Source of the DNA: Alligator mississippiensis
Taxonomy: Eukaryota
Length of the DNA stretch: 64,000 nucleotides
Assembly: GCF_030867095.1 (NCBI RefSeq)
Contig: NC_081830.1
Location: forward strand, 240,717 to 304,716
Reading direction: 5' to 3'
The notes under the pieces are model-generated. The model was given only the letters and a program-made list of their open reading frames with translations. It was not told the DNA's origin and made no database searches. A program made the translations under genes and the position numbers. The stretch's first letter is position 1. Each line of letters opens with the position of its first letter. Below are positions 2,868 to 63,640 of the stretch, one piece after another.

Positions 2868-3992
2868 GGCGCGGGGTCCTGCGCGGCGGTGGCGGCGGCG
2901 CCCGGGGGCTCATCGGGGCCTGGCGGAGACAAGAGCTGGGGTCCCGCCGCGCCCGCGGCCGCCACTCTGGCCGCGCTGCCCACGGCCCCCACGACGCGTC
3001 CCCGCGCGCGCGCGCTGCCCGGCCCGCGCCCAGTCACGTGCGCCCCCCGGCCCCTCGAGAGCGCGTCACGAGCGGGCCGGGCCGGCATGTGTCGCCCCGC
3101 TTGTTCATCAGCGCACCCTGCGCAGTAATAAGGTCTCATGCATAACAATGAGCGGCACCGCCCCCTCATGAATATTCATTCCCCCCCGAGCGCGCTGCTC
3201 GGTAGCACGCGCCGGGCTCCCGCTCACCCTCTCCCCGCCGCGCGGCTCCAGCACCGCCTCGCCGTCACCATGGAGACCACGCGACAACGGCCGCCGGCAA
3301 GGGTCCAATGAGAGCCGCGGCGGCTTCTCGGAAATGACGTTGCCACACGCTCTCTGCGCCGGAACTGGCTCCTTAGCACGCCAGCACGTGGGACGAAAAG
3401 AGCTTGCTAATAGGCTAGCGGTCACCGCAGCAACCGCAGATGGGGCGGGGCGAGTAGAAGCCAATAGAAGGACGGTGTTGGCGGCACATGACACAGGGCA
3501 TTGACGGAGAGCCGCTTCAGCTTATCCAAGCGCGAGGGAAGCTGCTGCCCCGCCTGCATTATACCTCTGATTGGCTGAGAGTCCTTGACCATACTGGAGC
3601 ACAGGCATATAGGGATCCCGCCGCGTCAGGCTGCTTGGCCAAGCCATTGTACGCATGCGTAGCGGAAGGTATTGGCGGAGCAGACAGCGCCTGCGCACTG
3701 CAGGACGGCAACCATGACAGCGCAACATCTGCGCTTGCGCGTTGCCAGAGGAGCAGTGTGGAGTGCGCTTGCGCACTTGTCGACCCGCATTATCCACCTG
3801 TTTTCAACAATAGGCCCGGCCTACGTTCCCCTAGCTAAGCCCTGACCTCGACTCCAGAGGGGCCAACGGTGTTGTTTGCCCCCAGCTCCATGACCTTTAG
3901 CCCCACTTTTGTGAACTGCACGTGACCGGGGCGCTCCGTGACGTCACACTAGTTAGGCGTGGCCACCACTGCTCCACCCACTCCCACGTGCC

Positions 3993-4394
3993 ATGGTGGC
4001 CTGCGCGACGCGGTGCTGGCTCCTCCTCTCCGCCCTGGCCCAGCTCCTCGGCGTGCAGGGGCGGGGCCGCACGTGGCACGCCCCGCCCCTGAACGCCAGT
4101 GTCCCGCCCCAGGCACCGCCCCCGCGCCTCTGGTTCGATTACCCCGACGACGACGCGGGCCGCGTGCGCGCCGCCTACGAGCGCCTGGGCGAGCCGCCGC
4201 GCGCCCCCCTGCCCAGTGAGCCCCGCCGCACGCCGTGCCTCGCCCCGTCCCGTCCCGCGCGGCCTCGGCCCCTGACAGCCCGCCCGCCCCTCCCTCCCGC
4301 AGACCCGCTGCCCCGCCTGCTCCGCCGCGTCACGCTGGGCGCCGCCGGCCTCGTGCTGCTGCTGCTCCTGGCGCAGGTCGTGGCGCCGCTGTAG
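3993..4394 (+). CDS. Candidate small type-I membrane protein (~130 aa). Signal peptide MVACATRCWLLLSALAQLLGVQG, NAS glycosylation site, acidic DYPDDDAG patch, C-terminal TM LGAAGLVLLLLLAQVV. One in-frame GT-AG intron is possible (about 4216-4302). Possibly a FIMP/C16orf92-like gene.
   Basis: ORF with signal-peptide plus TM architecture. The (AATAAA)n run at 4751-4783 lies 360 nt 3' of the stop. It is adjacent and convergent to TLCD3B, as C16orf92 is adjacent to FAM57B in human. No direct sequence match was recalled. Confidence 0.3.
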   Translation: MVACATRCWLLLSALAQLLGVQGRGRTWHAPPLNASVPPQAPPPRLWFDYPDDDAGRVRAAYERLGEPPRAPLPSEPRRTPCLAPSRPARPRPLTARPPLPPADPLPRLLRRVTLGAAGLVLLLLLAQVVAPL

Positions 4395-4750
4395 GTGCCC
4401 CCGTCCCCCCGGCCCGGGCCGGCCCACCTCGCCGCCCCGCCCCACCCAGGGCCGGCCCCACCCCCCTGACCCCGCTGTCCCGCAGGCTGTCCCGGCGCAC
4501 ACACGAGGCGGAGCCGGCGCTGCGGTCCTCACAAGGCTCTTTAATAGGCGCGGCCGCGCCGGCCCCACCCCTGCTGGGGGGCGCGGGGGGGGGGGGAGGG
4601 GGCGCCGCCCCTCCCCCTGCTTATTGCTACGGTGGGGGGGGCCGCCCCGGAGGGGGGGCGGGGCAGCGGGGAGGCCCCGCCCCCTCCTGCCCGGCCCCCC
4701 TCTGCCCCATGACCGCTAGCGGGCCCCGCGCCGCGGCCCCGCCCCTCTCA

Positions 4751-8589: not shown

Positions 8590-8870
8590 GGCCCGCTTTC
8601 TACACTGCGCATGCGCCTCTCAGTGCGCCGGGAAGCTTGCGGAGGCAGGCCGGAGCGCATGCGCAGAAAGTGACCGTAGCCAAGGCTCGATAACGGGCGC
8701 GTAAGCTCACAGCGCATGCGGAATGGAAGTAAGCACACCCCCCCCCACCCCCTCCTTTGGGGGAAAGGAGGGAGGGGCGAGAATTGCGCGCTAGCACGCA
8801 GGCGCTGCATCCAGATAACGTTTCCTGCTCCCCTTTCAGACCCTGCCAACACGCATGCGCAGTCGACTCT
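8590..8870. promoter_or_regulatory. Four NRF1-type palindromes (GCGCATGCGC-like) upstream of MAZ.
   Basis: The strings are ctgcgcatgcgcc (about 8605), gagcgcatgcgcag (about 8655), cagcgcatgcgg (about 8712) and cacgcatgcgcag (about 8857). Confidence 0.5.
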
Positions 8871-9498
8871 CGGGTCCTGGCGGGGTCCCCCGCCGCGCAC
8901 GCGCCCCCTGGCCGGCGCCCCTGATTGGCCGGCGGGCGGGCCACGCGCCAAATACAAAGAGGCGCGAGGCAGCGCGGGCGGCTGGGCGAGAGCTAGGCTG
9001 CGGCCGCTGGGGTTGAGCGTAGCGCGGCCAGGGACGACGAGGAGCGACCCTGGCAGCCGGACGCCTGCGGGCGGTCGGGCGCGGGCGGTCGGGCTGAGGG
9101 GCCCGCGGGAGCCCGCAGGGAGCAGGTGGGCCCGCGCCAGGGCGAGAACGTTCCTATGCGACTCCTCTCCACAGCCGGCGTCTCGCCGCTCTTCCCACCA
9201 TGCGTTGCGGCGGCCCGACTAGTGCGCAGGCGCGGGCCCGCCCCTGGGCGCGGGAGGGGGGGGGAAGGAGGCCCGGCGCCATTTTCGTGGCTCGGCGCAT
9301 CGCAGCGCCGCCCTTGCCGCGCACAGCCACCGCCCCTGCAAGGCGGGCCCGGCCTGTACCAAGTCCCGCGGGTGGGGCCGGGCGGGTGGTAGCGCCCAGC
9401 CCTGGCGGCCGGGGCGGCAGTGGGCCGGAGCGCCTCGGCGGCCATTTTGTGAGGGAGGGTGGGGGGGCCGCGACCGTTAGGAGCGGGCGGGGCCGGCG

Positions 9499-14720: not shown

Positions 14721-15155
14721 ATGTCAGCCGAGGCAGTGAGGAAGGAGGAGGACGAGGCGCCCCCAGACCCTGCGCCGCCCCCGCAGCCTCCGCCCCCCTC
14801 GCCGGGGGCCCCAGTCACCACGGAGAGCCCGGCAGAGCCGCCCGCCGCCATGCAGAACGGCGTGGGCCCCGTGAGGGCCTGCTCTGCCGAGGCACTGGCA
14901 TCCCCACCCCGGCCCCCTGGTCCCCCCCGCTCCCAGTCAGACCTGGGGGGCGGCTGCGGGGCAGGGGGCAGGGCATCTGCCCCTCCTGCGCCCTCTGAGC
15001 TGGGGCCACCAGCCCAGGAGCCAGAGCCGGAGCCAGAGCCCGAGCCGGAACCAGAGCCGGAGGAGAAGCCACGGGACTTCGTGCTGCTTGCAGCCCTGGC
15101 CTGCTTCTGCCCTGTCTGGCCGGTCAACATCATCGCTTTTGCCTACGCCATCATG
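14721..15155 (+). CDS. PRRT2: PRRT2 main coding exon ([17 protein letters not shown]...(EP)6...FAYAIM).
   Basis: ATG directly follows an acceptor-like ccccgcag, implying an upstream non-coding exon. Donor atg|gtgagc. Confidence 0.85.
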
Positions 15156-15929
15156 GTGAGCCATGAGCCTGCCCTGGCCTCATCTGCATGCAGTGTGCCC
15201 TGCACCCCAAGGCGCCTGAGCAGGAGAGTGGGGGGCATGGGCTGCCCTGGGGTGTGCAGCTTGCGGGGTCAGCTGGGGGTCAGGGGATGGACCCCGGCCC
15301 TGGTCTGAGCCGGGTGGGCACAGTCCCGCAGCTCGCTCCAGCAGGGTGACGTGGACGGGGCGCGGCGACTGGGCCGTGTGGCCAAGCTGCTGAGCCTGGT
15401 GGGGCTGGGCGCCGGGGCCCTCATTATCGCCACCGTCATCGCCATGCACCCCGGTGGTAAGTGCAGCTCCCCATCCCTGGCCCCCAAAACTCTGCCCCTC
15501 GACCTCCCAACCTTGCCCCCTGCCTGTGAGCCAAGTCCCCAGGCTCCGAACCCCCGCCCCTGGGCCTCCTAGCCCTGCCTGTGGGTCCTGAAACCCCACC
15601 CCTGGGCATCTAAATCCTGCCTCCTGCATCCTAGCCCCACCTGCGGGCCCCAAAAGCCCACCCCGTGCCTCCTAGCCCCACTTCTGCCCACAGCCCCCAA
15701 AACCTGAACCCCGCCCCCTGGGCCCTGAAACTCCACCCTTGGGTTTCCAAATCCCACCCCTTTTGCCCTATGGCTCTTAGCCCTGCCCTAAACCCCAATT
15801 CCTGCGGCCTTGGCTCCACCCCCAGACCCCACCCCTCCCTGAACCCCACCCCCCGCAGCTGAAGCGGGAGGTGGGGGGGGGGGGTCGTGCTGACCACTCA
15901 CTGCCACCTTCCCCGCAGTGTTCAAGTGA
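14721..15929 (+). CDS. PRRT2: Proline-rich transmembrane protein 2, CDS span; three coding exons.
   Basis: Pro-rich N-terminus, then a C-terminal CD225/dispanin region [67 protein letters not shown]. This matches human [53 protein letters not shown]. Confidence 0.88.
15324..15456 (+). CDS. PRRT2: PRRT2 exon ([44 protein letters not shown]).
   Basis: Acceptor cacag|tcc; donor g|gtaagt. Confidence 0.8.
15919..15929 (+). CDS. PRRT2: PRRT2 terminal micro-exon (..VFK*).
   Basis: Acceptor ccccgcag|tgttcaagtga. Human ends ..GVYK*. Confidence 0.6.
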
Positions 15930-16623
15930 GGATGACGTCACCGCCGCCCCTGCCCCCTCCCTCCATCTTCTTCCCCACTCGCCATGCCCCAGCCATCCCA
16001 CACCATGTGCCCACCCACCCCAGCCCTGCTGCATGCCCCCTCACACCTGTCCCAGCATCCACTCCTCCACACGCTCCCCCCCAACCCTGCAGGCACTGCC
16101 TTGACACCGGCCCTTGCCGCTGGTGCCAGACGGACGGACCCACAGCCTGGGGACACAGGACACGGGCTGAAGGGCCCCTTCTGCAGTTGGACGGTGGACG
16201 CGGCCCGGAACCGGGCAGGGGCAGCCAGGCCCACAGAGCCCTGCCCTTGCGGGCCTTCCCAGCCGGGGACCCGCCTTTGCACGTGTTTGGCGGCCCCGAG
16301 CCGGGGCTGCATGGCCTGCTGCATGGATCTTCCTTTTTGTAACCATGGGGGCGGGGTGGGTTTATAGCGGGGAGGGGAGGGGAGGGGAGGGGGCTGCATG
16401 GGACCTGGCCACACTTTGGGGGCTGGGTGTTCTGCCAGCTCAGAGGGGGCCATGAGGCAGGGCCAGGCTGGCTGGGGTCTTCTGCTACCCAGAAATGGGG
16501 CATTTCAATGCAAAACTAGGAGGGAGTGGGAAAGGGGGAGGCTGAGGGAGATAAACGTGTGGGGGGGGGGGGGGGCCGCACGACATGGCCGCACCTTTTG
16601 TAGCCAACGCATGAAACGAGCCA

Positions 16624-50391: not shown

Positions 50392-55740
<5,349 letters not shown>

Positions 55741-56099
55741 AGGCGCCGGGTGGGGGTGGGGGGGGCCATGAGGCCCCTCCTGCTCCCCTCCCCCAAAACA
55801 CAGGCCGGGGCTGGGCCAGGACTGGACCCAGGATGCCATGGCCCCATTTCCACAAGGGGGGGGTCCGCCACCTGGCTCCCGAGCCATCCCAGCATGCCTT
55901 GCGGCCCCCCCAGCCCCACCCTGTAAATACCCAGGATTCCATGTGCCAAGGCTCACGCACCCCGTTCCCCCCCCAGCTTCATTACCGTCATGACCAAGGT
56001 CCTCACTCCTCCCCACCGCCCGGTTAATTTATATCAAGCGTCCTATTTATTTCTGTATTTATTAATTTATTTGTGGCAGGTTGAGGAACGGGGCCCCCC

Positions 56100-56560
56100 A
56101 GCAGTTAGTTCACTGTCCCCTTTAAGGGCCTAAAACAAGGGCAGGAGGGAAATTGTGTTAGAGCATGCCCCTTTAAGGGGGGTTAAAAAAAATGCTTCCA
56201 GGCTATAAAAATCATGCAGGAGGATGTTTATTCCGAGTCCTCGAAGAGCATAGGCTTTTGGGAAGGGAATCCCTTTAAGGAATTTTAAATAAAAATGGGA
56301 GGGGATTTACTCCCCAGAGCATCCCTTTAAGGTCCATTGCTTGGCTTGAGTGCAAGGGGGGGCTTTTAGTTTGGAACATCCCTTTAAGATTTAAAGCAAC
56401 AGATGGGGGAGGGATGGCTCTAAGTAATCTGGGGGATACTAAAGCAGGCCTTTAAGGGCTTGGTAAGGGGAACTGTGGTGAAGGGAGGAGCCCTCATCCC
56501 TTTAAGATCACAGCTATTCCTTTAAGAGTGCCATTACCTTTAAGAAATGGAGTGTAGGAG
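56100..56560. repeat. Degenerate tandem array of about 50-bp units carrying the near-palindrome (C)CCCTTTAAGR, about 9 copies, in the SEZ6L2 3' UTR.
   Basis: Copies at about 56120, 56172, 56272, 56325, 56382, 56450, 56498, 56519 and 56537. Confidence 0.7.
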
Positions 56561-56690
56561 GGCAAATATTCCTGTGCCATTCTTCGGACGGATACCCCCA
56601 GAAGGGGGAAAGGGGGGGAGAGGTGTCCCACAGGCCCCGCCTCCCCGGGGGGGTGTCCTAGCCCCACTTCCGGCCCGTTGGAGCAATAAC

Positions 56691-56696
56691 AATAAA
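56691..56696 (+). terminator. SEZ6L2: SEZ6L2 polyA signal AATAAA.
   Basis: The string gcaataacaataaacgag, about 950 nt 3' of the stop. Confidence 0.6.
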
Positions 56697-57139
56697 CGAG
56701 GGAATCGCCTTTGTACAAGCCCACGGCTCCGCCTCTGCCTGGGGGAGAGGGCGGAGCCTAAGGAGGCACCGCCCCTCCGGGTCATGAAGGGAAGCCCCGC
56801 CCAACACTCCAGCACCACTCTGGGCTCCGCCCCTTTGCCCCTTCCCCCAGTAGGCCACGCCCCTGCTAGGGCCTGCCCCTTAGACCCTCCCCACTAGGCG
56901 CCGCCTTCGACAACGTACCGTTAGGCCCCGCCCCCTTTGCCCCTCCCCCCTAGACCCCGCCTCTTAGCTCCATCCGCTTTAGACCTGCGAGGCCCCACCC
57001 TCGTTGCTCCCTGCCCAGTTGGGGTGGCCACGCCTAAGCCCCACCCCTTTATGCACGCACCAAGCTCCGCCCCCATTTACCATGCCCCTTGCCTTCGCCT
57101 TGTAGCCCCGCCCCTCCAGCACAACGAACGGGGGGGGCC

Positions 57140-57520
57140 TGCCGTCGGGCGCATGCGCAGTGAAAAGCTGCGGACATGGTTATGCGTATGCGTGCTGGTT
57201 CATGGAGCGGGAAGGGGGGAGGAAATTGACAAAGTGCGCATGCGTAGCTCCATCCCAGGAGGGAGGTGATATGCAAGGGCTGTGGCTGCGCAGTGGAAGC
57301 GAGGCGCCGGCGCGTACGTTCTTCAAAGAGCTGTTGCGGCAAAGCAGAGCGCACGCGCTCTGGAAACGGGACGAAGGCTTCTGCGCATGCGCCTCGGGGC
57401 CGCCGGTGCCAGAGGGGCTTCAGGGCTCGCCTTGTCGCGCATGCGCACTGATGAGCCACGGCCGCGCTCTAGTGGCGAGCGCATGCGCAGCCTAGTGATC
57501 CGAGCGGGAACGCATGCGCA
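57140..57520. promoter_or_regulatory. PAGR1: Cluster of six NRF1-type palindromes (GCGCATGCGC/GCGCATGCGT) in the PAGR1 upstream CpG island.
   Basis: Sites at about 57149, 57238, 57384, 57440, 57481 and 57512. All match YGCGCATGCGY. Confidence 0.6.
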
Positions 57521-57689
57521 GAGGCGCCGGGACGGCTGGAGGGGGCAAAAGGCGTCAAAATGGCGACCAGTCAGCCTGGGGCCTAGGCCTGATTGCGATT
57601 CCGATTCCTTCTGCTCTGCCTTCGCCTGCTGCAGCCTGAGCACGGACCTGGAGCTGCCCCCGGGGTCAGTCAGGCTGGGGCCCAGCTGG

Positions 57690-58060
57690 CGGCTTGTGCA
57701 CATCTCCAGGACAGCCGCCATGTTGGCGTGACCCACTGCGCTCAATGCCAGACCTGGCCTAGCCCTGCAAGATGGCTGCTGCCATGGCATGACCTGCTGC
57801 GGGCAGTGCCCAGCCTGGCCTATCTCCCCAAGACAGCCACTGCTTTGGCATGACAGCCGGGGTCACCGCTGGCCCTTGCGTGCCCGCGTGACATGGCTGC
57901 CGTGTGGCCTGGCTCATCTTTGCTGACCGCCCAGCCTGGTCTAGGTCCCCAAGGTGGCCGCCGTGTCGGCGTGACCTCTTTTGGGTCACTGCCCGGGCTG
58001 CCTCAAGGTGGCGCAACCTGCCATCGTGTTCCAAGATGGCTGCCCCGTTGACCTGAAGCC
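57690..58060 (+). promoter_or_regulatory. PAGR1: Tandem array (about 6-7 × 62 bp) of units each carrying a YY1-like core (AAGATGGCKGC / GCCGCCATGTTGG), immediately 5' of the PAGR1 ATG.
   Basis: The strings include caagatggctgctgcc, aagacagccactgc, catggctgccgtg, aaggtggccgccgtg, aaggtggcgcaacc and aagatggctgcccc. Confidence 0.5.
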
Positions 58061-58081
58061 CCCCTCCCCCTGCAGGCAGCC

Positions 58082-58455
58082 ATGGAGTCCGTGGTGACGG
58101 AGGAAGAAGGGGAAGTGACCTCGGGGATGCAGCTGCTGGCCGTGGAGGATCCTGCAGGCCCCGAGGAGGTGCCGGCCGGGGCAGAGGAGGAGCCGCAGGG
58201 GCAGGAGGAAGACACGGCGGCAGGCGGGGAGGAAGACTGGTGCGTGGGCTGCAGTGACGAGGAGGTGGAGGCCCCCGAGGCCTGGATGCCACCACCTACT
58301 GAGATCCGGCGCCTGTACGAGCTCATCGCGGCGCAGGGCAGCCTGGAGCTGCAGGCCGAGAGCCTGCCCCGCCGCGCCCCCACGCCCGAGCCCGACAGCG
58401 AGGAGGACGAGCGCTCAGATGGGCCCCCGGCCAGTGAGGAAGAGGAGGAGGAGAA
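58082..58455 (+). CDS. PAGR1: PAGR1 exon 1.
   Basis: ATG at 58082; donor aa|gtgagc (phase 2). Confidence 0.88.
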
Positions 58456-58975
58456 GTGAGCACTTGGCCTGAGTGAAGGGATGCGGGTCGGGAGCGAGGG
58501 GCACCGCTGGAGGCCAAGGGGCTTTGGGGGGCTGAAGGGCAGGGCTGAGGGGTCCCATGGGGCTCTGGGGGTTCCCCCATTCCTGCCACCCCTCCAGTGA
58601 CAACCTCTCTGCCCCCAGGCCCCACATCCCGACTGAGTTTGACTTTGACGACGAGCCTGCCTCACCCAAGAGCACCCTCATCGACCGTCGCAGAGCACCA
58701 GGTAAGCCCATGGGGGGACCCTGGCAGCCAGGCCTGGCAGGGGCAGGGGTGTGCAGGCGACCCTAGGGCTGACACATGCACTTGCCGCAGGCGCAGGGTC
58801 ACGCAGCCAGAAGCGGGAGGCGCGGCTGGATAAGGTGCTGTCAGACATGCAGCGCCACAAGCAGCTGGAGGAGCAGATCCTGCGCACCGGGCGCGACCTC
58901 TTCCAGCTGGACAGCGGTGATGAGCCCATGCCCAAGCGCCCGTCTGGACTCTTCCTGCGCCAGCGCAAGTACTGA
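58082..58975 (+). CDS. PAGR1: PAXIP1-associated glutamate-rich protein 1 (PA1), CDS span; three coding exons.
   Basis: The CDS reads [16 protein letters not shown]...[53 protein letters not shown]...[28 protein letters not shown]...[39 protein letters not shown]...LFLRQRKY*. This is highly similar to human PAGR1. Confidence 0.92.
58609..58691 (+). CDS. PAGR1: PAGR1 exon 2 ([28 protein letters not shown]).
   Basis: Acceptor ctgcccccag; donor g|gtaagc. Confidence 0.88.
58791..58975 (+). CDS. PAGR1: PAGR1 exon 3 (..[35 protein letters not shown]...RQRKY*).
   Basis: Acceptor cttgccgcag; stop TGA at 58973-58975. Confidence 0.9.
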
Positions 58976-59256
58976 CCCCTTTGCAGGGCCCTGCCGCTGC
59001 AGGAACCTCAAAGGCCGGGTGTGATAAAGTGACAGGTGAGAGGAGCAATGAACACCTGGCCCAGCCAATGGTAGCAGGGACCAACGGCTGGGGGGATGAA
59101 GTGGGACCAGCTCCTGGAGTGACGGACAGCTGGCCCAGCTCATGGGAGCCCGAGGAGAGGTTGGGGCGGGGGTTGAAGTTGCTTGATTATGGTACAGGGG
59201 CCACTCCCATCCTGGCTAAGAGCCTGGCTATGAGCCTGACCACCCAGGGAAGCCCC

Positions 59257-59262
59257 AATAAA
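59257..59262 (+). terminator. PAGR1: PAGR1 polyA signal AATAAA.
   Basis: The string agccccaataaagtg. Confidence 0.6.
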
Positions 59263-59710
59263 GTGTCTGCTGCCCCCTCCCATTGCCTGGATGCTCATCC
59301 CTACTCACAGCTTGGGGGGGGGTGTCTAATGCAGCCAGGAGGTTATTTAATCCAGGCACCTCCCCATTTTGGAAGAAGACATTACATTTCCTCTCCCCAA
59401 ACACTCGCCCTCCCCTTTACAAATTAAAACAAATATTTTTATGTTTCTGGGCCACTTAAATAAAATCTCTTTAAGAGCCAATGACTAAAAAGCAGGAGAA
59501 TGATGATTCTAATCCCCTTTCTCTTAAATTTGCCCATCCCCTTCTCCAGCTGGAGGCATGCCTGCCGCTTTAAACTCCTTACAGGGATTTTTCCCAGGTT
59601 CTTAAAGGGATGATTCTAGAATAAAAGCCTATTTGGTTAGAAGCAGCTCTTAAAGGTGCAGCTCCCTAAAAGGAAGGAGAAATTGGGGCAGCGGCAGTAA
59701 CAAAACATGC

Positions 59711-59716: not shown

Positions 59717-59795
59717 TGGAAATGTACAAAAAGGGGGTGGAGAGAGGATAGAACCAACAAGGGGAAGGGGTGGGGCCTGGCCAAACCCCGCCCCA

Positions 59796-61551
59796 TCACT
59801 CGCTGTCGTCCTCGTCGCTGCTGATGATGCCGCGGAGCTGGGACCAGTCGGGGCGGGTGCGGGGGGGGCTGGGCGCTGGCGGGGTGCTGGGCGCCGCGTA
59901 CAAGCTCCATACATTGCGGCGGCGTGGGCGGCCTGCGCAGGGAGGGCAGAGGTCAGAGCACCGGGGAACCCAGGCATCCAGCCCCCACCCCCTGCTCAGT
60001 CGCTGTACGCACCGTGGGAGGGAATGATGTTGCCCAAGTCCAGCGCGGCCACCTCAGCCTCCTGCTCGCGGCGCAGGCGCACCTCCTGGCATCGCTGCAG
60101 CGATGGGCGCCCTGCAGGGTGGGGAGGAAGGGGGTTGAGTGGGGCTGCAGGGGCATCCCCAGCCCTGGCCCCCACTGCCACTCACCATCCAGGCCGAGCG
60201 CAGCCAGCTCCTGGCGCAGCACAGCCACGCGCTCCCGCCGGCTCCGGCACCCGCCCAGCAGCTTGCGATAGTTGGGCCGCACGCCACAGACGCGCAGGTA
60301 CCGCTTCAAGCGCCGCACCTCTGGGGCGTCCCCCGGCTCCTGCTTTCCCGTCCGCAGCCGGCCCTGTGTGCACGCGCTGGTCAGCCAGATAGCGGGCCTC
60401 CTGCCGCCCTGCTGTGCCCCATCCAGCCCCCAACACCCGGGTCCCCTGCTGCTTTACTGGCCCAGAGCTCTCAGCGCCCCTGGGCCCCACACTCACCTTC
60501 TGCTTCTTGCCCCCGGCGGCGCTGTGGGAGCGGGTGTTCTCCTGCGGGCGGGTGTTCTCCTCGTCGGAGGAGGACGAGGACGAGGAGGAGGAAGAGGAGG
60601 AGTCTTCGGCGCTCGCCTCCCGCTCCTTGTCCCCTGCCCCGGCCTCCCCCTCTGGCACGGACGCCTCTGGGCTCTCACTGCTGTTGGCCTTCATCTTTTT
60701 GGCCTCAGGGCTCTTGGCATCCCTGGCCCTTGGCTTCTTGGCCTCCGGGCTCCCCGTGTGCCTGGGACTCAGCTTCTTGGCCTCTGGGCTCTCGAGGTCC
60801 GCAGCCCTCAGTTTCTTGGTCTCTGGGCTCTTGGCCTCCCTGTCCGAGCCGTCGCTGTCGGAGCTGGACTCTGGGGGAGGCGAGGGGCTGGGGCTGGCGC
60901 TACTCTCATGCTCGGCGGCAGCTCTGGGCTTCTCGGCCTGCACAGACGGGTTGGGGTTGGAGCGGGCGAGACCCGCGGCGGGGGGCACGGGGGGGGGGGG
61001 GGGGGGGGTGACATGGGGGGTCCTCACCTGCGTGCGCAGCTCGGCCTCCACCAGGCGCCGCAGCAACCGCTTCTCGCCCGGCATCAGGCTCCCGTGCCCC
61101 GACTGTGCCACGAACCGGCGCCGCACGGCCCCCAGCGTCAGCGCGCTGCGGGGGTGTCAGCATGGGCGCGGGTCCCGGCCAGCTCCCACCGTCCTGCGTG
61201 CCCCGGAGCCAGGGCGGCCCAGCTCCCACAATCCTCTGCTCCCCGATGAACCCACTAGCCCAGCTCCCACAGTCCTTTGCTGCTCCCTATAACCCCACCA
61301 TAGAACCCAGGCGGGCCAGCTCCCACAATCCTTTGCTTCCCTGGGGAACCCAGGTGTCCTCGGTCCCACAATTTTCTGCTCCCCACAATGGACCCAGGGG
61401 CCCTGCCTCCCAGAATCCTTTGCGCTGCCACCCTGGTCTCCCAGGCAACCCAGGTGCCCCCGCCCCTTGCCCGGGGTCACCTGGGGTCGCGGCTGTCTTC
61501 GAAGAGCCGCCGCGTGAATTCGCGCAGTTCCTGCTCCCGCTCCGCCGCCAT
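59796..61551 (-). CDS. HIRIP3: HIRA-interacting protein 3. About six coding exons: about 61481-61551, 61028-61144, about 60496-61000 (large acidic Ser/Glu-rich exon), about 60186-60363, 60013-60111 and 59796-59932.
   Basis: The protein begins MAAEREQELREFTRRLF and includes VRRRFVAQSGHGSLMPGEKRLLRRLVEAELRTQ. The acidic/serine exon has repeated SPEAKK motifs and a poly-Ser tract. The CHZ-like region has MRRLKRYLRVCGVRPNYRKLLGGCRSRRERVAVLRQELAALGLD and ..AEVAALDLGNIIPSH. The C-terminus PDWSQLRGIISSDEDDSE* matches human PDWSHMRGIISSDGESN*. Confidence 0.9.
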
Positions 61552-61879
61552 CGCTGCGCCCCGCCGGCTGCCGTAGCCCGCCAAGCGCCGCCGCGGAGGC
61601 CGACGGGACACGTAGTCCCGGCAACCAGCAAACCGACGAGAAGCCGCGGGGGTTCACGGGACACGTAGTCCGCGGAAAGGGCAGGCCAATGGGAAGCCGG
61701 GAGCGGTCGGAGCGTCGCGCGCCGCGTTGTCTCGGAAACGAGCGGGCCAATGGGCGGGCGCGCGGGGCATGGCGGGACGAGGCGGCGCGCGGGGCACGCC
61801 GGGAGTGCTGCTCGCCCCGGCCCCGCGCGGGGCACGCCGGGAGTGCTGCTCGGCGCGCGGTGCATGCCGGGCAGGGGCC
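61552..61879. promoter_or_regulatory. HIRIP3/INO80E bidirectional CpG promoter (328 bp between divergent ATGs) with two CCAAT boxes (61685, 61746) and a duplicated 15-mer CGGGACACGTAGTCC (61606, 61655).
   Basis: The CCAAT boxes read caggccaatgggaag and cgggccaatgggcgg. The same head-to-head arrangement occurs at human 16p11.2. Confidence 0.7.
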
Positions 61880-61966
61880 ATGAACGGCGCCGCGGCCGAG
61901 GCCGAGCCGGGCGGACACAAGCGGCGCTACCGGGCCCTCAAGCGGCGCCTCAAGCTGCTGGTCTAC
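61880..61966 (+). CDS. INO80E: INO80E exon 1.
   Basis: ATG at 61880; donor tac|gtgcgc. Confidence 0.9.
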
Positions 61967-63640
61967 GTGCGCGGGGGGGCAGCGGGGGCGGGCCGCGGGG
62001 GGGGCCGGCGCTGCGGGCCCCCGTGACGCCTTCCCCCTTTCCCCCCAGGAGCAGGAGTGCTTCCAGGAGGAGCTGAGGAAGGCGCAGCGCAGACTGCTCA
62101 AGGTGTCGCGGGATAAGAGGTGAGGGGGCCGCGGGGCGGGCGGGCACGGGCAGCGCGGGCCGCCCTGACAGCACCGCTCTTTCACCCCCGCAGCTTCCTG
62201 CTGGACCGGCTGCTGCAGTACGAGCACGTGGACGAGGAGTCCTCGGGTACGGATTTCGGGGGGCCCCGGGTGCGTGCGTGCGGGAGGGCCGCGGGTCTGC
62301 GTCCCCCTGACGTCTCCTTTCCCCCTGGCCGCAGACTCGGAGGCGACGGCCTCGTCCGACAACAGTGACGGGGACGGGCCCAAGGGCGCAGCCGAGCCCC
62401 CGCCCCTGAAGAGGTGAGGTCCCGCGTGCGCTTGTGCGGAGCGTGCTCGGGGGGGCGGGCGTCGTCAAGACGAAACACCAGCTTTGAACACGACGGCCCA
62501 GGCTTTGCCGGGTGACGGTCGTCTACTCGTGCCACGGACGGTCGTGGCCCCCTGGGGGGGTCGGCGGGGAAAGTAGCGTTCAGCGCGCCTGTCTGGGCGT
62601 GCGCCAGGCTCAGGTGTGGCTGCCAAATCCTCCCTGCCTGCAGCCCCCACAACGTGTCTCTGTCGCCCAGGAAGCGGAGCCCCCAGCTGGGCGGCGCCTC
62701 GTCCCCGTCCTCCTCTGGCCTCTCCCTGCAAGCGACCACCGCCTTCCCGCTGCCGGGGTCCGGAGCCCCCTCCCCCTACCTCAGCTCGGTGAGTAGGAAC
62801 CAGCCTCTCCACCCCCTGCTTTTGCAGGGTGGGCAGGGGAACTGCCTGCAGAGATTGCTGGTGTCGTTTGCCAGCACCAAAGATGGCTGCTGTGACCAGA
62901 AAAGGGCAAATGCCAGGGTCCAAGATGGCTGACAGGCGTCCCTGTGCAGGGGTGGGGCTCTGGTGGGAGTGGCACAGGTGGGTTTCTTTGCCAGTACACA
63001 GTATGGTTGCCAGGACTTCTTTTATTATGCTTAGTGAGGGTGAAGTACGCCTACTTTGGGCCTGGCCAAGTTCCAACACAGTGGGCTTGCTTGGCCGGCA
63101 GCTGGGGTGGCCAAATCTCCCTGCTCCTAAGCACCCTCGTGCAGGGGGTGGGGTACGGCCACATGGCAGCTTATCGTCCTCCTCCTCCGCAGATGGCGTC
63201 TCCCCCCTACAGCCCCTTTCCTGCCGAGTACCTGGCGCCTGAGCCTGGAGCCACCCGGCAGGCCCCCGACCGCCGCGCCAAGGCCCCCCGCAAGCTCCAG
63301 GTACGACACAGGTGGATGGGGGGGAGCGCCCGGCGCCAAGGTGGCTACCAGGCCCTGGGGGGAGGTGGTGGTGCGTGCCAGGCCCCAAGATGGCTGCACT
63401 GACACACTCCCTCCCCTGCAGATGGCGTCGGCCGAGTGTTCGGTGGGGGGGGCGCTGGGGTTTGGGCCAGGCCGGGGGGGGGGCCCAGGCGCCCTGCCCC
63501 CGCTCTCGGCCTCGGCCAAGCTGCCGCCGCCGCCAGTGCCCTGCACGGTGCCGCAGCAGATGTTCAGCGACACAGCCGAGGGCAGTGGCGACGACCCCCT
63601 GGACGGCGACGATGAGCTCGTCATTGACATCCCCGAGTGA
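61880..63640 (+). CDS. INO80E: INO80 complex subunit E, CDS span; seven coding exons.
   Basis: The CDS reads [85 protein letters not shown]...[20 protein letters not shown]...SPYLSS...[31 protein letters not shown]. This is highly similar to human INO80E. Confidence 0.93.
62049..62119 (+). CDS. INO80E: INO80E exon 2.
   Basis: Acceptor ccccccag; donor ag|gtgagg. Confidence 0.9.
62194..62246 (+). CDS. INO80E: INO80E exon 3.
   Basis: Acceptor cccccgcag; donor g|gtacgg. Confidence 0.9.
62335..62413 (+). CDS. INO80E: INO80E exon 4.
   Basis: Acceptor ggccgcag; donor ag|gtgagg. Confidence 0.9.
62671..62788 (+). CDS. INO80E: INO80E exon 5.
   Basis: Acceptor tcgcccag; donor tcg|gtgagt. Confidence 0.9.
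63193..63300 (+). CDS. INO80E: INO80E exon 6.
   Basis: Acceptor cctccgcag; donor cag|gtacga. Confidence 0.9.
63422..63640 (+). CDS. INO80E: INO80E exon 7 (terminal).
   Basis: Acceptor cccctgcag; stop TGA at 63638-63640. Confidence 0.9.

What the first reader, a model, noticed from the sequence alone, without database searches (positions are those of the whole stretch)
57140..58060. PAGR1 upstream region combines six NRF1 palindromes with a tandem array of YY1-like cores
Six YGCGCATGCGY sites fall within 380 bp (57140-57520). Immediately downstream (57690-58060) are about 6-7 tandem 62-bp units, each carrying an AAGATGGCKGC / GCCGCCATGTT core. The array ends at the PAGR1 ATG. Similar aagatggctg cores recur in INO80E introns (62877, 62920, 63340, 63385). 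This is a dense, unusual promoter architecture and may be a lineage-specific expansion.
Basis: seen in the sequence. Interest (0 to 1): 0.5.

Follow-up and report, generated by a model that had tools for sequence, protein, structure and literature searches.

The report
Alligator PAGR1 promoter and YY1-motif repeat
This is the American alligator PAGR1 promoter: a cluster of NRF1 sites, then a worn-down 61-bp repeat with YY1-type motifs inside the first intron, a repeat that turtles share, so it is old rather than alligator-specific.

Summary
The window is Alligator mississippiensis; the gene is PAGR1 (100% protein match). The observation largely holds. There are six YGCGCATGCGY sites at 57149-57520, against 0.14 expected in the whole window. 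A 61-bp tandem periodicity is present at 57703-58062 (z about 5).

Only 2 of 7 units keep AAGATGGCTGC. One more has a GCCGCCATGTT that arose by an alligator-specific CpG-to-TpG change. The other four cores are degraded.

Splice junctions recovered from annotated isoforms place the array inside a 5' intron (57665-58075), not in upstream promoter DNA.

It is not a lineage-specific expansion:
- A. sinensis has the same units.
- Two turtles carry a better-preserved array of the same 29-nt module at the same place. The first two units are positionally orthologous.
- A lizard keeps one unit.
- The NRF1 cluster plus one CAAAATGGCG site recurs in turtles and ostrich.

NRF1 density is the highest in the window, but only 1.5 times that of another CpG island.

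Best reading: a housekeeping CpG-island promoter built from same-motif (homotypic) site clusters, plus an ancient, decaying intronic array of YY1 sites of the kind already described in mammals. Factor binding and function are untested.

The parts
56781..57139 (+). Zone of GC boxes and C/T-rich sequence upstream of the NRF1 cluster. It is a degenerate direct repeat of GGCCCCGCCCC(C)TTTGCCCCTCCCCC-type units carrying putative Sp/KLF boxes.
   Evidence: Direct-repeat families D3-D5 and D7. A 14-bp Tandem Repeats Finder hit at 56925-56961. CCCGCCC at 56796, 56927 and 57107, and 8 CC[GA]CCC in all. CpG o/e 0.57. 95.8% identical to A. sinensis, which has a 27-28 nt extra unit.
57149..57159 (.). NRF1 palindrome 1 (GGCGCATGCGCAGTGA). 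Its ATG is used as the start codon in one annotated model.
   Evidence: Conserved in A. sinensis. The same extended site, GGCGCATGCGCAGTGA, is present in three turtles.
57235..57245 (.). NRF1 palindrome 2 (TGCGCATGCGT).
   Evidence: Lost in A. sinensis, which reads GCGCATGAGC.
57349..57358 (.). Near-site GCGCACGCGC.
   Evidence: In A. sinensis it is a perfect GCGCATGCGC, which shows site turnover.
57382..57392 (.). NRF1 palindrome 3.
   Evidence: Half-site mutated in A. sinensis to GCGCATGTGC.
57436..57447 (.). NRF1 palindrome 4 (CGCGCATGCGCACTGA).
   Evidence: Conserved in A. sinensis. Matches Malaclemys GCGCATGCGCACTGA.
57479..57489 (.). NRF1 palindrome 5.
   Evidence: Conserved in A. sinensis.
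57510..57520 (.). NRF1 palindrome 6 (ACGCATGCGCA).
   Evidence: Mutated to CGCATGTGC in A. sinensis.
57556..57567 (+). Single conserved YY1-type site, CAAAATGGCGAC, just downstream of the NRF1 cluster.
   Evidence: Matrix score 0.86-0.91 of maximum. Invariant CAAAATGGCG in A. sinensis, Malaclemys and Caretta. Also present in ostrich at -388, Carettochelys at -903 and cuckoo.
57153..57185 (+). 5' exon segment of GenBank model KYO41049 (P0121), with donor GTATGC at 57186. The A. sinensis isoform X1 uses the equivalent of the ATG at 57176-57178 followed by a GT donor.
   Evidence: The junctions reproduce the annotated proteins with GT-AG borders.
57635..57664 (+). Short 5' exon of model P0121 (acceptor CTGCAG|, donor |GTCAGT).
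   Evidence: The GGGTCAGT donor is invariant in both alligators and both turtles.
57665..58075 (+). 5' intron that contains the whole array. Its acceptor is CCCCTCCCCCTGCAG|GCAGCCATG.
   Evidence: CpG o/e 0.45 with an excess of TpG+CpA. No RNA structure signal, z -0.27. No Rfam match.
57703..57764 (+). Unit U1. The plus-strand core has decayed to CAGGACAGCCGC. The minus-strand CAACATGGCGGC (57714-57725) was created by CACG to CATG.
   Evidence: A. sinensis reads CCGCCACGTT and turtles CCGCCACCT. Orthologous to turtle unit 1.
57765..57825 (+). Unit U2: intact CAAGATGGCTGC followed by the hallmark GCTGCCATGGCATGAC.
   Evidence: Score 0.97. The 16-mer GCTGCCATGGCATGAC is identical in the second unit of Malaclemys and of Caretta.
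57826..57885 (+). Unit U3: core decayed to CAAGACAGCCAC.
   Evidence: Score 0.0. Repeat families D1 and D2.
57886..57946 (+). Unit U4: core TGACATGGCTGC.
   Evidence: Score 0.47. Alignment A1.
57947..58001 (+). Unit U5: CCCCAAGGTGGCCGCCGTGTCGGCGTGAC. This is the best match to the turtle module, but ATGG has become GTGG.
   Evidence: Score 0.51. 26/28 identical to Caretta units, E 3e-7.
58002..58029 (+). Unit U6 (truncated): CAAGGTGGCGCA.
   Evidence: Score 0.33..
58030..58062 (+). Unit U7 (truncated): intact CAAGATGGCTGC, 50 nt before the ATG.
   Evidence: Score 0.97. CCAAGATGGCTGCCCCGTTG matches Caretta at 19/20. Resembles the single Podarcis unit CCCAAGATGGCCGCCGTCTTG at -104.
58076..58455 (+). 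First coding exon of PAGR1 (ATG at 58082). The other coding exons are 58619-58701 and 58791-58975.
   Evidence: The spliced translation is 100% identical to XP_014457028.1.
62879..62932 (+). Two sense-strand YY1-type cores, 42 nt apart, in an INO80E intron (AAAGATGGCTGC and CAAGATGGCTGA).
   Evidence: Identical in A. sinensis. They share only 13-17 nt with the PAGR1 and turtle units.
63341..63397 (+). A degraded core (AAGGTGGCTAC) and an intact one (CAAGATGGCTGC at 63386) in the next INO80E intron. The intact core lies 36 nt before the acceptor.
   Evidence: In A. sinensis the intact one reads AAGATAGCTAC.

Best explanation
This is the CpG-island promoter and first intron of alligator PAGR1, built from three successive clusters of same-motif sites.

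1. A GC-box repeat zone (56781-57139).
2. The unmethylated core (57140-57530, CpG o/e 1.1), holding six NRF1 palindromes. Annotated 5' exons begin here.
3. One deeply conserved YY1-type site (57556) and a short non-coding exon, then a 411-nt intron almost filled by a 61-bp minisatellite.

The minisatellite's ancestral unit carried the module CCCCAAGATGGCYGCCGYGTTGGCGTGAC, that is, a sense-strand YY1 consensus plus a conserved 3' half.

The array arose by tandem duplication before turtles and archosaurs split. It is still being homogenised in sea turtles. In Alligator it is decaying under CpG loss, and only two ancestral cores plus one accidental one still look like YY1 sites.

Most likely mechanism (inferred): NRF1 dimers and Sp/KLF factors keep the island open and drive dispersed initiation. 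YY1 bound at 57556 and at the surviving intronic cores acts as a promoter-proximal downstream activator or anchor. This would resemble the YY1 site clusters in the first introns of mammalian genes and the YY1-bearing monomers of mouse LINE-1.

Shown here: the anatomy, the enrichment, the intronic position and the age. Inferred: factor occupancy, transcription start sites and any present-day function of the array.
For: Identity: the spliced PAGR1 is 100% identical to the A. mississippiensis protein.

NRF1 sites: 17 matches against 0.14 expected. Density is 6 per 400 bp, the highest in the window.

CpG o/e: 1.11 in the NRF1 zone against 0.45 in the array.

Periodicity: lag 61 z 5.05, lag 121 z 5.28. 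Repeat families.

YY1-grade hits: 4 against 0.014 expected. Per-unit scores.

Intron position: GT-AG junctions reproduce P0121, the A. sinensis X1 isoform and the Malaclemys X1 isoform.

Age:
- The A. sinensis units are orthologous.
- Malaclemys has 8 sense-strand cores at -571 to -188, with Tandem Repeats Finder periods of 29 and 72 at 90-92% matches.
- Caretta has 11 copies of the 29-nt module within 6 mismatches and 12 ECMFinder YY1 motifs per 500 bp, mostly near-identical 43-bp units.
- Alligator U5 matches turtle units at 26/28, E 3e-7, and U2's 16-mer is identical in both turtles.
- The four-way alignment keeps the order: YY1 site, donor, unit 1, unit 2.
- Podarcis keeps one unit.
- The 29-nt module occurs nowhere else in about 218 kb of sequence held, and is always on the sense strand.

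Conserved promoter: NRF1 cluster plus CAAAATGGCG in ostrich (7 perfect decamers), Carettochelys, Malaclemys and Caretta.

Literature:
- Conserved YY1 clusters near transcription start sites and in first introns, with no conservation of site number or spacing (PMC2665242).
- YY1 motifs in tandem L1 monomers give synergistic promoter activity (PMC11602158).
- YY1 motifs are over-represented just downstream of human transcription start sites (PMC8384218).
Against: There are no expression, start-site, ChIP or methylation data for any reptile here.

Within Alligator the YY1 core is not better conserved than the rest of the unit. The only invariant columns are a GC dinucleotide, and 4-5 of 7 ancestral cores are destroyed.

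The array is no more conserved between the two alligators (95.3%) than neighbouring non-coding DNA at 95-97%. This test has little power.

The array has bulk-genome CpG depletion, which suggests it lies outside the protected island.

Carettochelys and cuckoo have different repeats in the same intron without good YY1 cores. Ostrich has no array. So the YY1 cores are dispensable in some lineages.

The consensus test and the published ECMFinder criterion agree with it.
Confidence: 0.55

Rival explanations
1. The array is a selectively neutral by-product. Tandem duplication is favoured at factor-bound sites in germline-open chromatin. It generated, and keeps regenerating, same-motif arrays (GC boxes, NRF1, YY1-type). 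The intronic minisatellite persists through mutational bias and concerted evolution, and contributes nothing to PAGR1 expression in alligator.
For: - Short insertions at germline-bound NRF1, SP/KLF and CTCF sites duplicate the motif and build same-motif clusters (PMC8559717).
- All three zones here are degenerate direct repeats.
- Alligator cores are decaying, with CpG o/e 0.45.
- There is no extra conservation between the two alligators.
- The same intron holds unrelated repeat units in Carettochelys and cuckoo.
- Cuckoo has other YY1-motif arrays nearby, so such arrays may be common in these GC-rich regions.
Against: - The 29-nt module and the order of units 1 and 2 are retained between turtles and alligators, while the rest of the intron cannot be aligned.
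- Every core is on the sense strand.
- Turtle arrays keep near-consensus YY1 cores in almost every unit.
- This rival still needs YY1, or another factor, to be bound in the germline. It therefore overlaps with the main explanation.
Confidence: 0.3
2. The units act at the RNA level as a train of upstream mini-ORFs (ATG GCY GCC NNN TTG GCG TGA, 6 codons). These would throttle translation when the intron is retained or when transcription starts inside the array.
For: Most turtle units, and alligator U2 and U7, read as ATG followed by 5-6 codons and an in-frame TGA, in good Kozak context (sequence). Alligator U2 differs from the turtle unit by an in-frame 3-nt insertion.
Against: - Annotated isoforms splice the whole array out.
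- The fourth codon varies freely at all positions, and the ATG or stop is lost in U1, U3, U4, U5 and U6.
- Frame conservation in turtles is explained by recent homogenisation of the units.
- There is no RNA structure signal.
Confidence: 0.05
3. The cores belong to a dispersed repeat or transposable-element family of crocodilian genomes. That would explain why similar cores turn up in INO80E introns.
For: - AAGATGGCTGC is exact at 57769, 58033, 62880, 63387 and 28751.
- The INO80E copies share up to GGCCCCAAGATGGCTGC (17 nt) with turtle units.
- The echidna upstream array with CTCCATTTT is a SINE array.
Against: - The 29-nt module, allowing up to 6 mismatches, is found only in the PAGR1 intron arrays across about 218 kb held.
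- Similarity to the INO80E copies ends after 13-17 nt.
- No terminal repeats or TE-like ORFs are evident in 56500-58200.
- There is positional orthology across 250 My.
- No repeat library (Dfam or Repbase) could be searched.
Confidence: 0.05
4. One reading: a lineage-specific (alligator) expansion of YY1 sites that creates an unusual promoter.
For: The array is absent from ostrich, gecko, Xenopus and echidna.
Against: It is present with the same units in A. sinensis and with orthologous units in two turtle families. The expansions are in the turtles, and the alligator copy is the degraded one.
Confidence: 0.02

Closest known systems
Evolutionarily conserved clusters of YY1-binding sites near transcription start sites and in first introns (Peg3 first intron and 30 other mammalian loci; Kang, Chung and Kim 2009, PMC2665242; Kim et al. 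2006)
   Same: - Several same-orientation YY1 motifs within 500 bp in a first intron next to a CpG-island promoter.
- The cluster is conserved at the homologous place, while site number, spacing and flanking sequence are not.
- The sites are organised as a tandem array.
- The published numerical criterion is met.
   Different: - Found in reptiles, not mammals.
- PAGR1 is not among the loci named in the text read (no supplement was held).
- Most alligator cores lack the CpG of CGCCAT, reading AGCCATCTT.
- The unit has an additional conserved 3' half (GTTGGCGTGAC).
- YY1 binding is untested.
- The alligator copy is decaying.
YY1 arrays of imprinting and X-inactivation control regions (Peg3-DMR, Nespas, Xist, DXPas34)
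   Same: Tandem arrays of a single factor's motif with rapid sequence turnover. YY1 binding to such motifs is sensitive to CpG methylation (cited).
   Different: There is no evidence of allele-specific methylation. Genomic imprinting is not known in reptiles (general knowledge). PAGR1 is a housekeeping-type gene. Membership is therefore not claimed.
Tandem 5'UTR monomers of mouse LINE-1 Tf, each with a YY1 motif (PMC11602158)
   Same: Head-to-tail promoter-proximal units, each carrying a YY1 core. In the mouse element the motifs give each monomer activity and synergy between monomers, which is the model for how such an array could work.
   Different: - The L1 monomers are about 200 bp, are transcribed as 5'UTR and belong to a transposon.
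- Here the units are 29-61 bp and intronic at a single-copy gene, and only 2-3 of 7 are intact.
Same-motif NRF1 site clusters in CpG-island promoters, and their growth by motif-duplicating insertions in the germline (PMC8559717; Gotea et al. 2010 as cited there)
   Same: - Multiple perfect GCGCATGCGC palindromes in a CpG-rich, non-depleted core.
- Extended sites share flanks (GGCGCATGCGCAGTGA), suggesting duplication.
- Sites turn over between the two alligators.
   Different: Six perfect 11-mers in 372 bp is at the dense end. Ostrich has seven decamers in 314 bp. No occupancy data exist.

Membership tests
NRF1-type CpG-island promoter with a same-motif NRF1 cluster | Repeated palindromic consensus YGCGCAYGCGCR | tested here: met
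   Six exact YGCGCATGCGY sites at 57149-57520, plus GCGCACGCGC at 57349.
NRF1-type CpG-island promoter with a same-motif NRF1 cluster | Lies in a CpG island without CpG depletion | tested here: met
   57140-57530 has GC 0.65 and CpG o/e 1.11. The flanks are at 0.45-0.57.
NRF1-type CpG-island promoter with a same-motif NRF1 cluster | Coincides with transcription start sites | tested here: inconclusive
   Annotated 5' exons start within or next to the cluster (P0121; X1 isoforms of A. sinensis and Malaclemys). No CAGE or RNA data were available.
NRF1-type CpG-island promoter with a same-motif NRF1 cluster | NRF1 protein occupancy | not testable with these tools
   Needs ChIP or CUT&RUN.
Conserved clustered YY1-binding sites (ECMFinder definition) | At least 3 cgCCATntt motifs (at most 1 mismatch in the lower-case positions) within 500 bp | tested here: met
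   4 in A. mississippiensis (-525, -366, -313, -49 relative to the ATG), 9 in Malaclemys, 12 in Caretta. A. sinensis has 3 within 504 bp, so 2 per 500.
Conserved clustered YY1-binding sites (ECMFinder definition) | Within 5 kb of the transcription start site | tested here: met
   The array lies 0.1-0.9 kb downstream of the annotated 5' exons.
Conserved clustered YY1-binding sites (ECMFinder definition) | Cluster present at the homologous position in three species | tested here: met
   Alligator, Malaclemys and Caretta, with unit order conserved. Not met in ostrich, Carettochelys or Podarcis, which have one site each.
Conserved clustered YY1-binding sites (ECMFinder definition) | In vivo YY1 binding | not testable with these tools
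   Needs YY1 ChIP in reptile cells.
Imprinting-control-type YY1 arrays (Peg3-DMR, Xist) | CpG inside each motif (CGCCAT), allowing methylation-sensitive binding | tested here: not met
   The intact array cores are AGCCATCTT. Only 57557 and the accidental 57716 are CGCCAT.
Imprinting-control-type YY1 arrays (Peg3-DMR, Xist) | Allele-specific methylation or monoallelic expression | not testable with these tools
   No methylation data. Not filed under this family.
Minisatellite (tandem repeat) | Head-to-tail copies with a constant period | tested here: met
   Lag 61 and lag 121 autocorrelation, z about 5. Families D1 and D2.
Minisatellite (tandem repeat) | Detected by Tandem Repeats Finder | tested here: not met
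   No row over 57690-58060 at minimum score 30; the copies are too diverged, at 59% column identity. The Malaclemys array is detected with periods 29 and 72 at 90-92% matches.

The most novel reading that the evidence does not exclude
A promoter-proximal minisatellite of YY1 sites has been kept in the first intron of PAGR1 for more than 250 million years, from the common ancestor of turtles and crocodilians, with one unit already present in the ancestor shared with lizards. It is maintained by concerted evolution because multiple YY1 sites act as a built-in enhancer or anchor for this housekeeping promoter. This would be a non-mammalian, non-imprinted counterpart of the Peg3- and Xist-type YY1 arrays. 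The sense-strand YY1 cores in INO80E introns would add feedback between YY1 and the INO80 complex, of which YY1 is a subunit.
Probability: 0.2. Interest if true: 0.55.

Novelty: new member of a known kind. Interest (0 to 1): 0.35.

Why it matters
If the array is functional, it extends clustered YY1-site arrays beyond mammals. So far they have been discussed mainly for mammalian imprinting and X-inactivation centres and for a few dozen mammalian promoters. It would show that such arrays can persist at one locus for about 250 million years while their copy number, period and sequence keep changing.

That would give a clean natural experiment on how tandem arrays of one factor's sites are born, homogenised and lost:
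- Caretta: a young, homogenised array
- Malaclemys: intermediate
- Alligator: decaying
- Ostrich: lost

If it is neutral, it is still a well-dated example of mutational bias building same-motif site clusters at a germline-active promoter.

For annotation, it explains spurious N-terminal extensions that start at the ATG inside an NRF1 palindrome.

Tried and rejected
- **Tandem Repeats Finder on the alligator array:** nothing at score 30. Periodicity had to be shown by autocorrelation instead.
- **RNA gene or structure in the intron:** no Rfam match in 56000-58500 even at E of 1 or below. Folding energy was no better than shuffles, z -0.27.
- **Bacterial promoter/terminator scan:** irrelevant, and empty.
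- **Exact look-ups of P0001 and P0002:** failed because only the longest isoform is indexed. P0124 worked.
- **Constraint test between the two alligators:** divergence is only 3-8% everywhere, so it has no discriminating power.
- **Homology between the INO80E intron copies and the PAGR1 units:** only 13-17 nt are shared, so they are treated as separate small clusters.
- **Echidna periodic CTCCATTTT hits:** these turned out to be a tandem array of MIR/Mon-1-like SINE units, unrelated.
- **Ostrich 'relics' of units:** seen by eye but not supported by alignment, so not claimed.
- **Naming the genes at the other NRF1-rich CpG islands from long ORFs:** gave nothing usable.
- **Supplement of the ECMFinder paper:** not held, so whether mammalian PAGR1 is on its list is unknown.
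- **Crocodylus and Gavialis PAGR1:** not among the protein hits, and contig look-ups were exhausted (12 of 12). No second crocodilian family was compared.
Full report
**Source and gene map.** The spliced ORF starting at 58082 (exons 58082-58455, 58619-58701, 58791-58975) is 100% identical to PAGR1 of Alligator mississippiensis, XP_014457028.1. Reading the sequence gives this local order:
- SEZ6L2 (+), ending near 55740
- PAGR1 (+)
- HIRIP3 (-), about 59790-61552
- INO80E (+), ATG at 61880

The window is 68% G+C.

**The NRF1 part of the observation.** Six distinct YGCGCATGCGY sites lie at 57149, 57235, 57382, 57436, 57479 and 57510. The window has 17 strand-matches against 0.14 expected. This is the densest cluster in the window, at 6 per 400 bp. 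Another island at 38842-39046 has 4 per 400 bp, or 5 per 600 bp, and there are 3 at 8606-8861. So the density is high but only about 1.5 times the next island. The NRF1 zone is the only segment here without CpG depletion, at o/e 1.11 against 0.45-0.57 on both sides.

**The array.** Tandem Repeats Finder does not report it. Gap-free repeat families show copies 61 and 121-122 nt apart at 71-77% identity. Autocorrelation peaks at lag 61 (z 5.05) and lag 121 (z 5.28), against a shuffle 95th percentile of 3.5.

I delimit five full and two truncated units, U1 to U7, over 57703-58062, with a mean column identity of 59%. U4, U5 and U6 score 0.33-0.51, and U1 and U3 score about 0.

The GCCGCCATGTT in U1 is a minus-strand match (0.92). 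It exists only because CACG became CATG in A. mississippiensis. A. sinensis has CCGCCACGTT and the turtles have CCGCCACCT.

A further site, CAAAATGGCGAC, lies at 57556, upstream of the array. Four YY1-grade hits in 57531-58081 compare with 0.014 in Markov simulations. The consensus AAGATGGCTGC with up to 1 mismatch occurs 8 times in the window against 1.67 expected. The published ECMFinder criterion gives 4 motifs per 500 bp.

**Position relative to the transcript.** GenBank model KYO41049 (P0121, 243 aa) is reproduced only by joining 57153-57185, 57635-57664 and 58076 onward, with GT-AG at every junction. NCBI isoform X1 of A. sinensis (MAAMESVV...) joins an ATG equivalent to 57176-57178 directly to the same acceptor. 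Malaclemys X1 does the equivalent.

So the array sits inside a 5' intron (57665-58075, or 57179-58075 in the longer version). It ends at the polypyrimidine tract and CAG acceptor, 6 nt before the ATG. These are annotation models, not direct RNA evidence. However, the GGGTCAGT donor is invariant in both alligators and both turtles.

**Comparison with other species.** A. sinensis (L001) aligns at 93.9% over 56000-59300 and has the same units. NRF1 sites turn over between the two species: three are lost or half-mutated and one is gained.

Malaclemys terrapin (L002), in order:
- NRF1 sites
- CACAAAATGGCGGCGG
- the same donor
- eight sense-strand CAAGATGGC[CT]GC cores in an array with periods 29 and 72 at 90-92% matches

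Caretta caretta (L009) has 11 copies of the 29-nt module within 6 mismatches and 12 ECMFinder YY1 motifs per 500 bp. Most lie in near-identical 43-bp units, GAGCCCCAAGATGGCCGCCGCGTTGGCGTGACTGGCAGGTGGC.

Alligator U5 matches these units at 26/28 (E 3e-7). U2's GCTGCCATGGCATGAC is identical to the second unit of both turtles. A four-way alignment keeps the order YY1 site, donor, unit 1, unit 2. The array therefore predates the turtle-archosaur split, roughly 250 million years ago by general knowledge.

Other species:
- Podarcis (L004) keeps a single CCCAAGATGGCCGCCGTCTTG, 104 nt before the ATG.
- Ostrich (L003) has seven perfect GCGCATGCGC sites, one CACAAAATGGCGGCGG and no array.
- Carettochelys (L005) keeps the NRF1 cluster and the single site, but its intron is filled by a different repeat with CCCCCATGGCCCCGCC cores.
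- Cuckoo (L008) has NRF1 followed by CAAGATGGCGGC, and yet another intronic repeat.
- Gecko and Xenopus show nothing within the sequence held.
- Echidna has NRF1 and a YY1 site 10 nt apart.

The 29-nt module, allowing up to 6 mismatches, occurs only in these arrays in about 218 kb held, and always on the sense strand.

**What argues for and against function.** For:
- The module and unit order persist while the rest of the intron cannot be aligned.
- Orientation is strictly sense.
- Turtle arrays have near-consensus cores.

Against:
- In alligator the core is not better kept than the spacer.
- Most cores are destroyed.
- The array is CpG-depleted.
- It is not more conserved than its neighbours between the two alligators, though this is a weak test.
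- Some lineages have replaced or lost it.
- Crocodilians and turtles evolve slowly (general knowledge), so a best-of-many 26/28 match is not in itself proof of selection.

**Known parallels.** Kang, Chung and Kim described 31 mammalian loci with at least 3 YY1 motifs per 500 bp near the transcription start site. The clusters are conserved but not their sequence. The Peg3 first intron is the model case, and most tested loci bound YY1 in vivo (PMC2665242). Mouse L1 Tf monomers show that tandem units with YY1 motifs act synergistically (PMC11602158). YY1 motifs are enriched just downstream of human transcription start sites (PMC8384218). Kaiser et al. showed that germline-bound NRF1, SP/KLF and CTCF sites gain motif-duplicating insertions that build same-motif clusters (PMC8559717). 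That offers a neutral route to all three zones seen here.

**INO80E introns.** Sense-strand cores at 62879, 62921 and 63386, plus a degraded one at 63341, are confirmed and mostly conserved in A. sinensis. They share only 13-17 nt with the PAGR1 units. YY1 is an integral subunit of the human INO80 complex (PMC9733932). That makes YY1 sites in an INO80 subunit gene suggestive, but nothing more can be said here.

**Verdict.** This is a new, reptilian example of known kinds of element: a same-motif NRF1 promoter cluster and a clustered YY1-site array in a first intron. Its main point of interest is its age and its different states of preservation across lineages.

Noticed in passing
L008 (Cuculus canorus) 15143-16063, minus strand: About 40 copies of (C)CGGCGCCAT[CT]TT every 21-25 nt (Tandem Repeats Finder periods 21, 46, 67, 113 and 269). 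This is a perfect long YY1 consensus array of about 0.9 kb, intergenic and about 1 kb upstream of a trypsin-like gene. It may be related to avian 21/41-bp satellites; this was not resolved.
   Followed up: partly
L008 5390-5769 and 4627-5000: The cuckoo PAGR1 intron after coding exon 1 is a GGCCAAAAAT 10/31-bp array with AAAATGGCC cores. Its 5' intron carries a 24/72-bp array, GGACCTAAATTGGTGGCCCCA. Tandem repeats in PAGR1 introns seem to be general in turtles, crocodilians and birds, with drifting unit sequence.
   Followed up: partly
L005 (Carettochelys insculpta) 4126-4744: The intron homologous to the array intron is filled by 43/97/100-bp repeats with CCCCCATGGCCCCGCC cores. ATGGCC is kept, but the AA needed for YY1 is lost.
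   Followed up: partly
window 58032-58075, 63386-63421 and 63160-63192: In three introns the last YY1-like core lies 33-45 nt upstream of the 3' splice site, just 5' of a branch-point-like TGAC and a C-rich tract. Both INO80E exons that follow begin with ATGGCGTC. This could be chance or a small internal duplication.
   Followed up: no
window 61590-61871: The HIRIP3/INO80E bidirectional promoter has two copies of GGGACACGTAGTCC (near 61608 and 61658), two GGCCAATGGG boxes (near 61686 and 61746), and a 38-bp tandem repeat at 61783-61871 (2.7 copies).
   Followed up: no
window 38748-39503 and 8606-9449: Other CpG islands show the same grammar. There are five NRF1 sites at 38842-39410 with CAAGATGGCGCC (38748) and CAAGATGGCGGC (39492, where the ATG looks like a start codon). 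There are three NRF1 sites at 8606-8861 with CAAAATGGCCGC on the minus strand at 9438. The genes were not identified.
   Followed up: partly
window 57153 and L002 6001: Annotated N-terminal extensions (P0121 MRSEKLRTWLC..., Malaclemys X1 MRTERVV...) start at the ATG inside an NRF1 palindrome (GCGCATGCG). These are probably annotation artefacts of a 5'UTR rather than real coding sequence.
   Followed up: partly
L007 (echidna) 3342-4387: A tandem array of 135/153-bp MIR/Mon-1-like SINE units (..CTCATCTGCAAAATGGAGATGAAGACTG..) lies directly upstream of the PAGR1 promoter. It mimics a periodic YY1-motif array.
   Followed up: yes
window 60989-61008 and 28001-30000: A run of 20 G inside the HIRIP3 region, and a 2-kb AT-rich island (GC 0.34-0.42) in an otherwise 68% GC window, which may be a transposon insertion.
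   Followed up: no
all PAGR1 array units (window 57947-57975; L002 6485-6612; L009 5526-5870): The 3' half of the unit, GTTGGCGTGAC, is as conserved as the YY1 core. It fits the TNGCGTG core of AhR/ARNT-type sites (from memory) and also closes a 6-codon mini-ORF. What constrains it is unexplained.
   Followed up: partly
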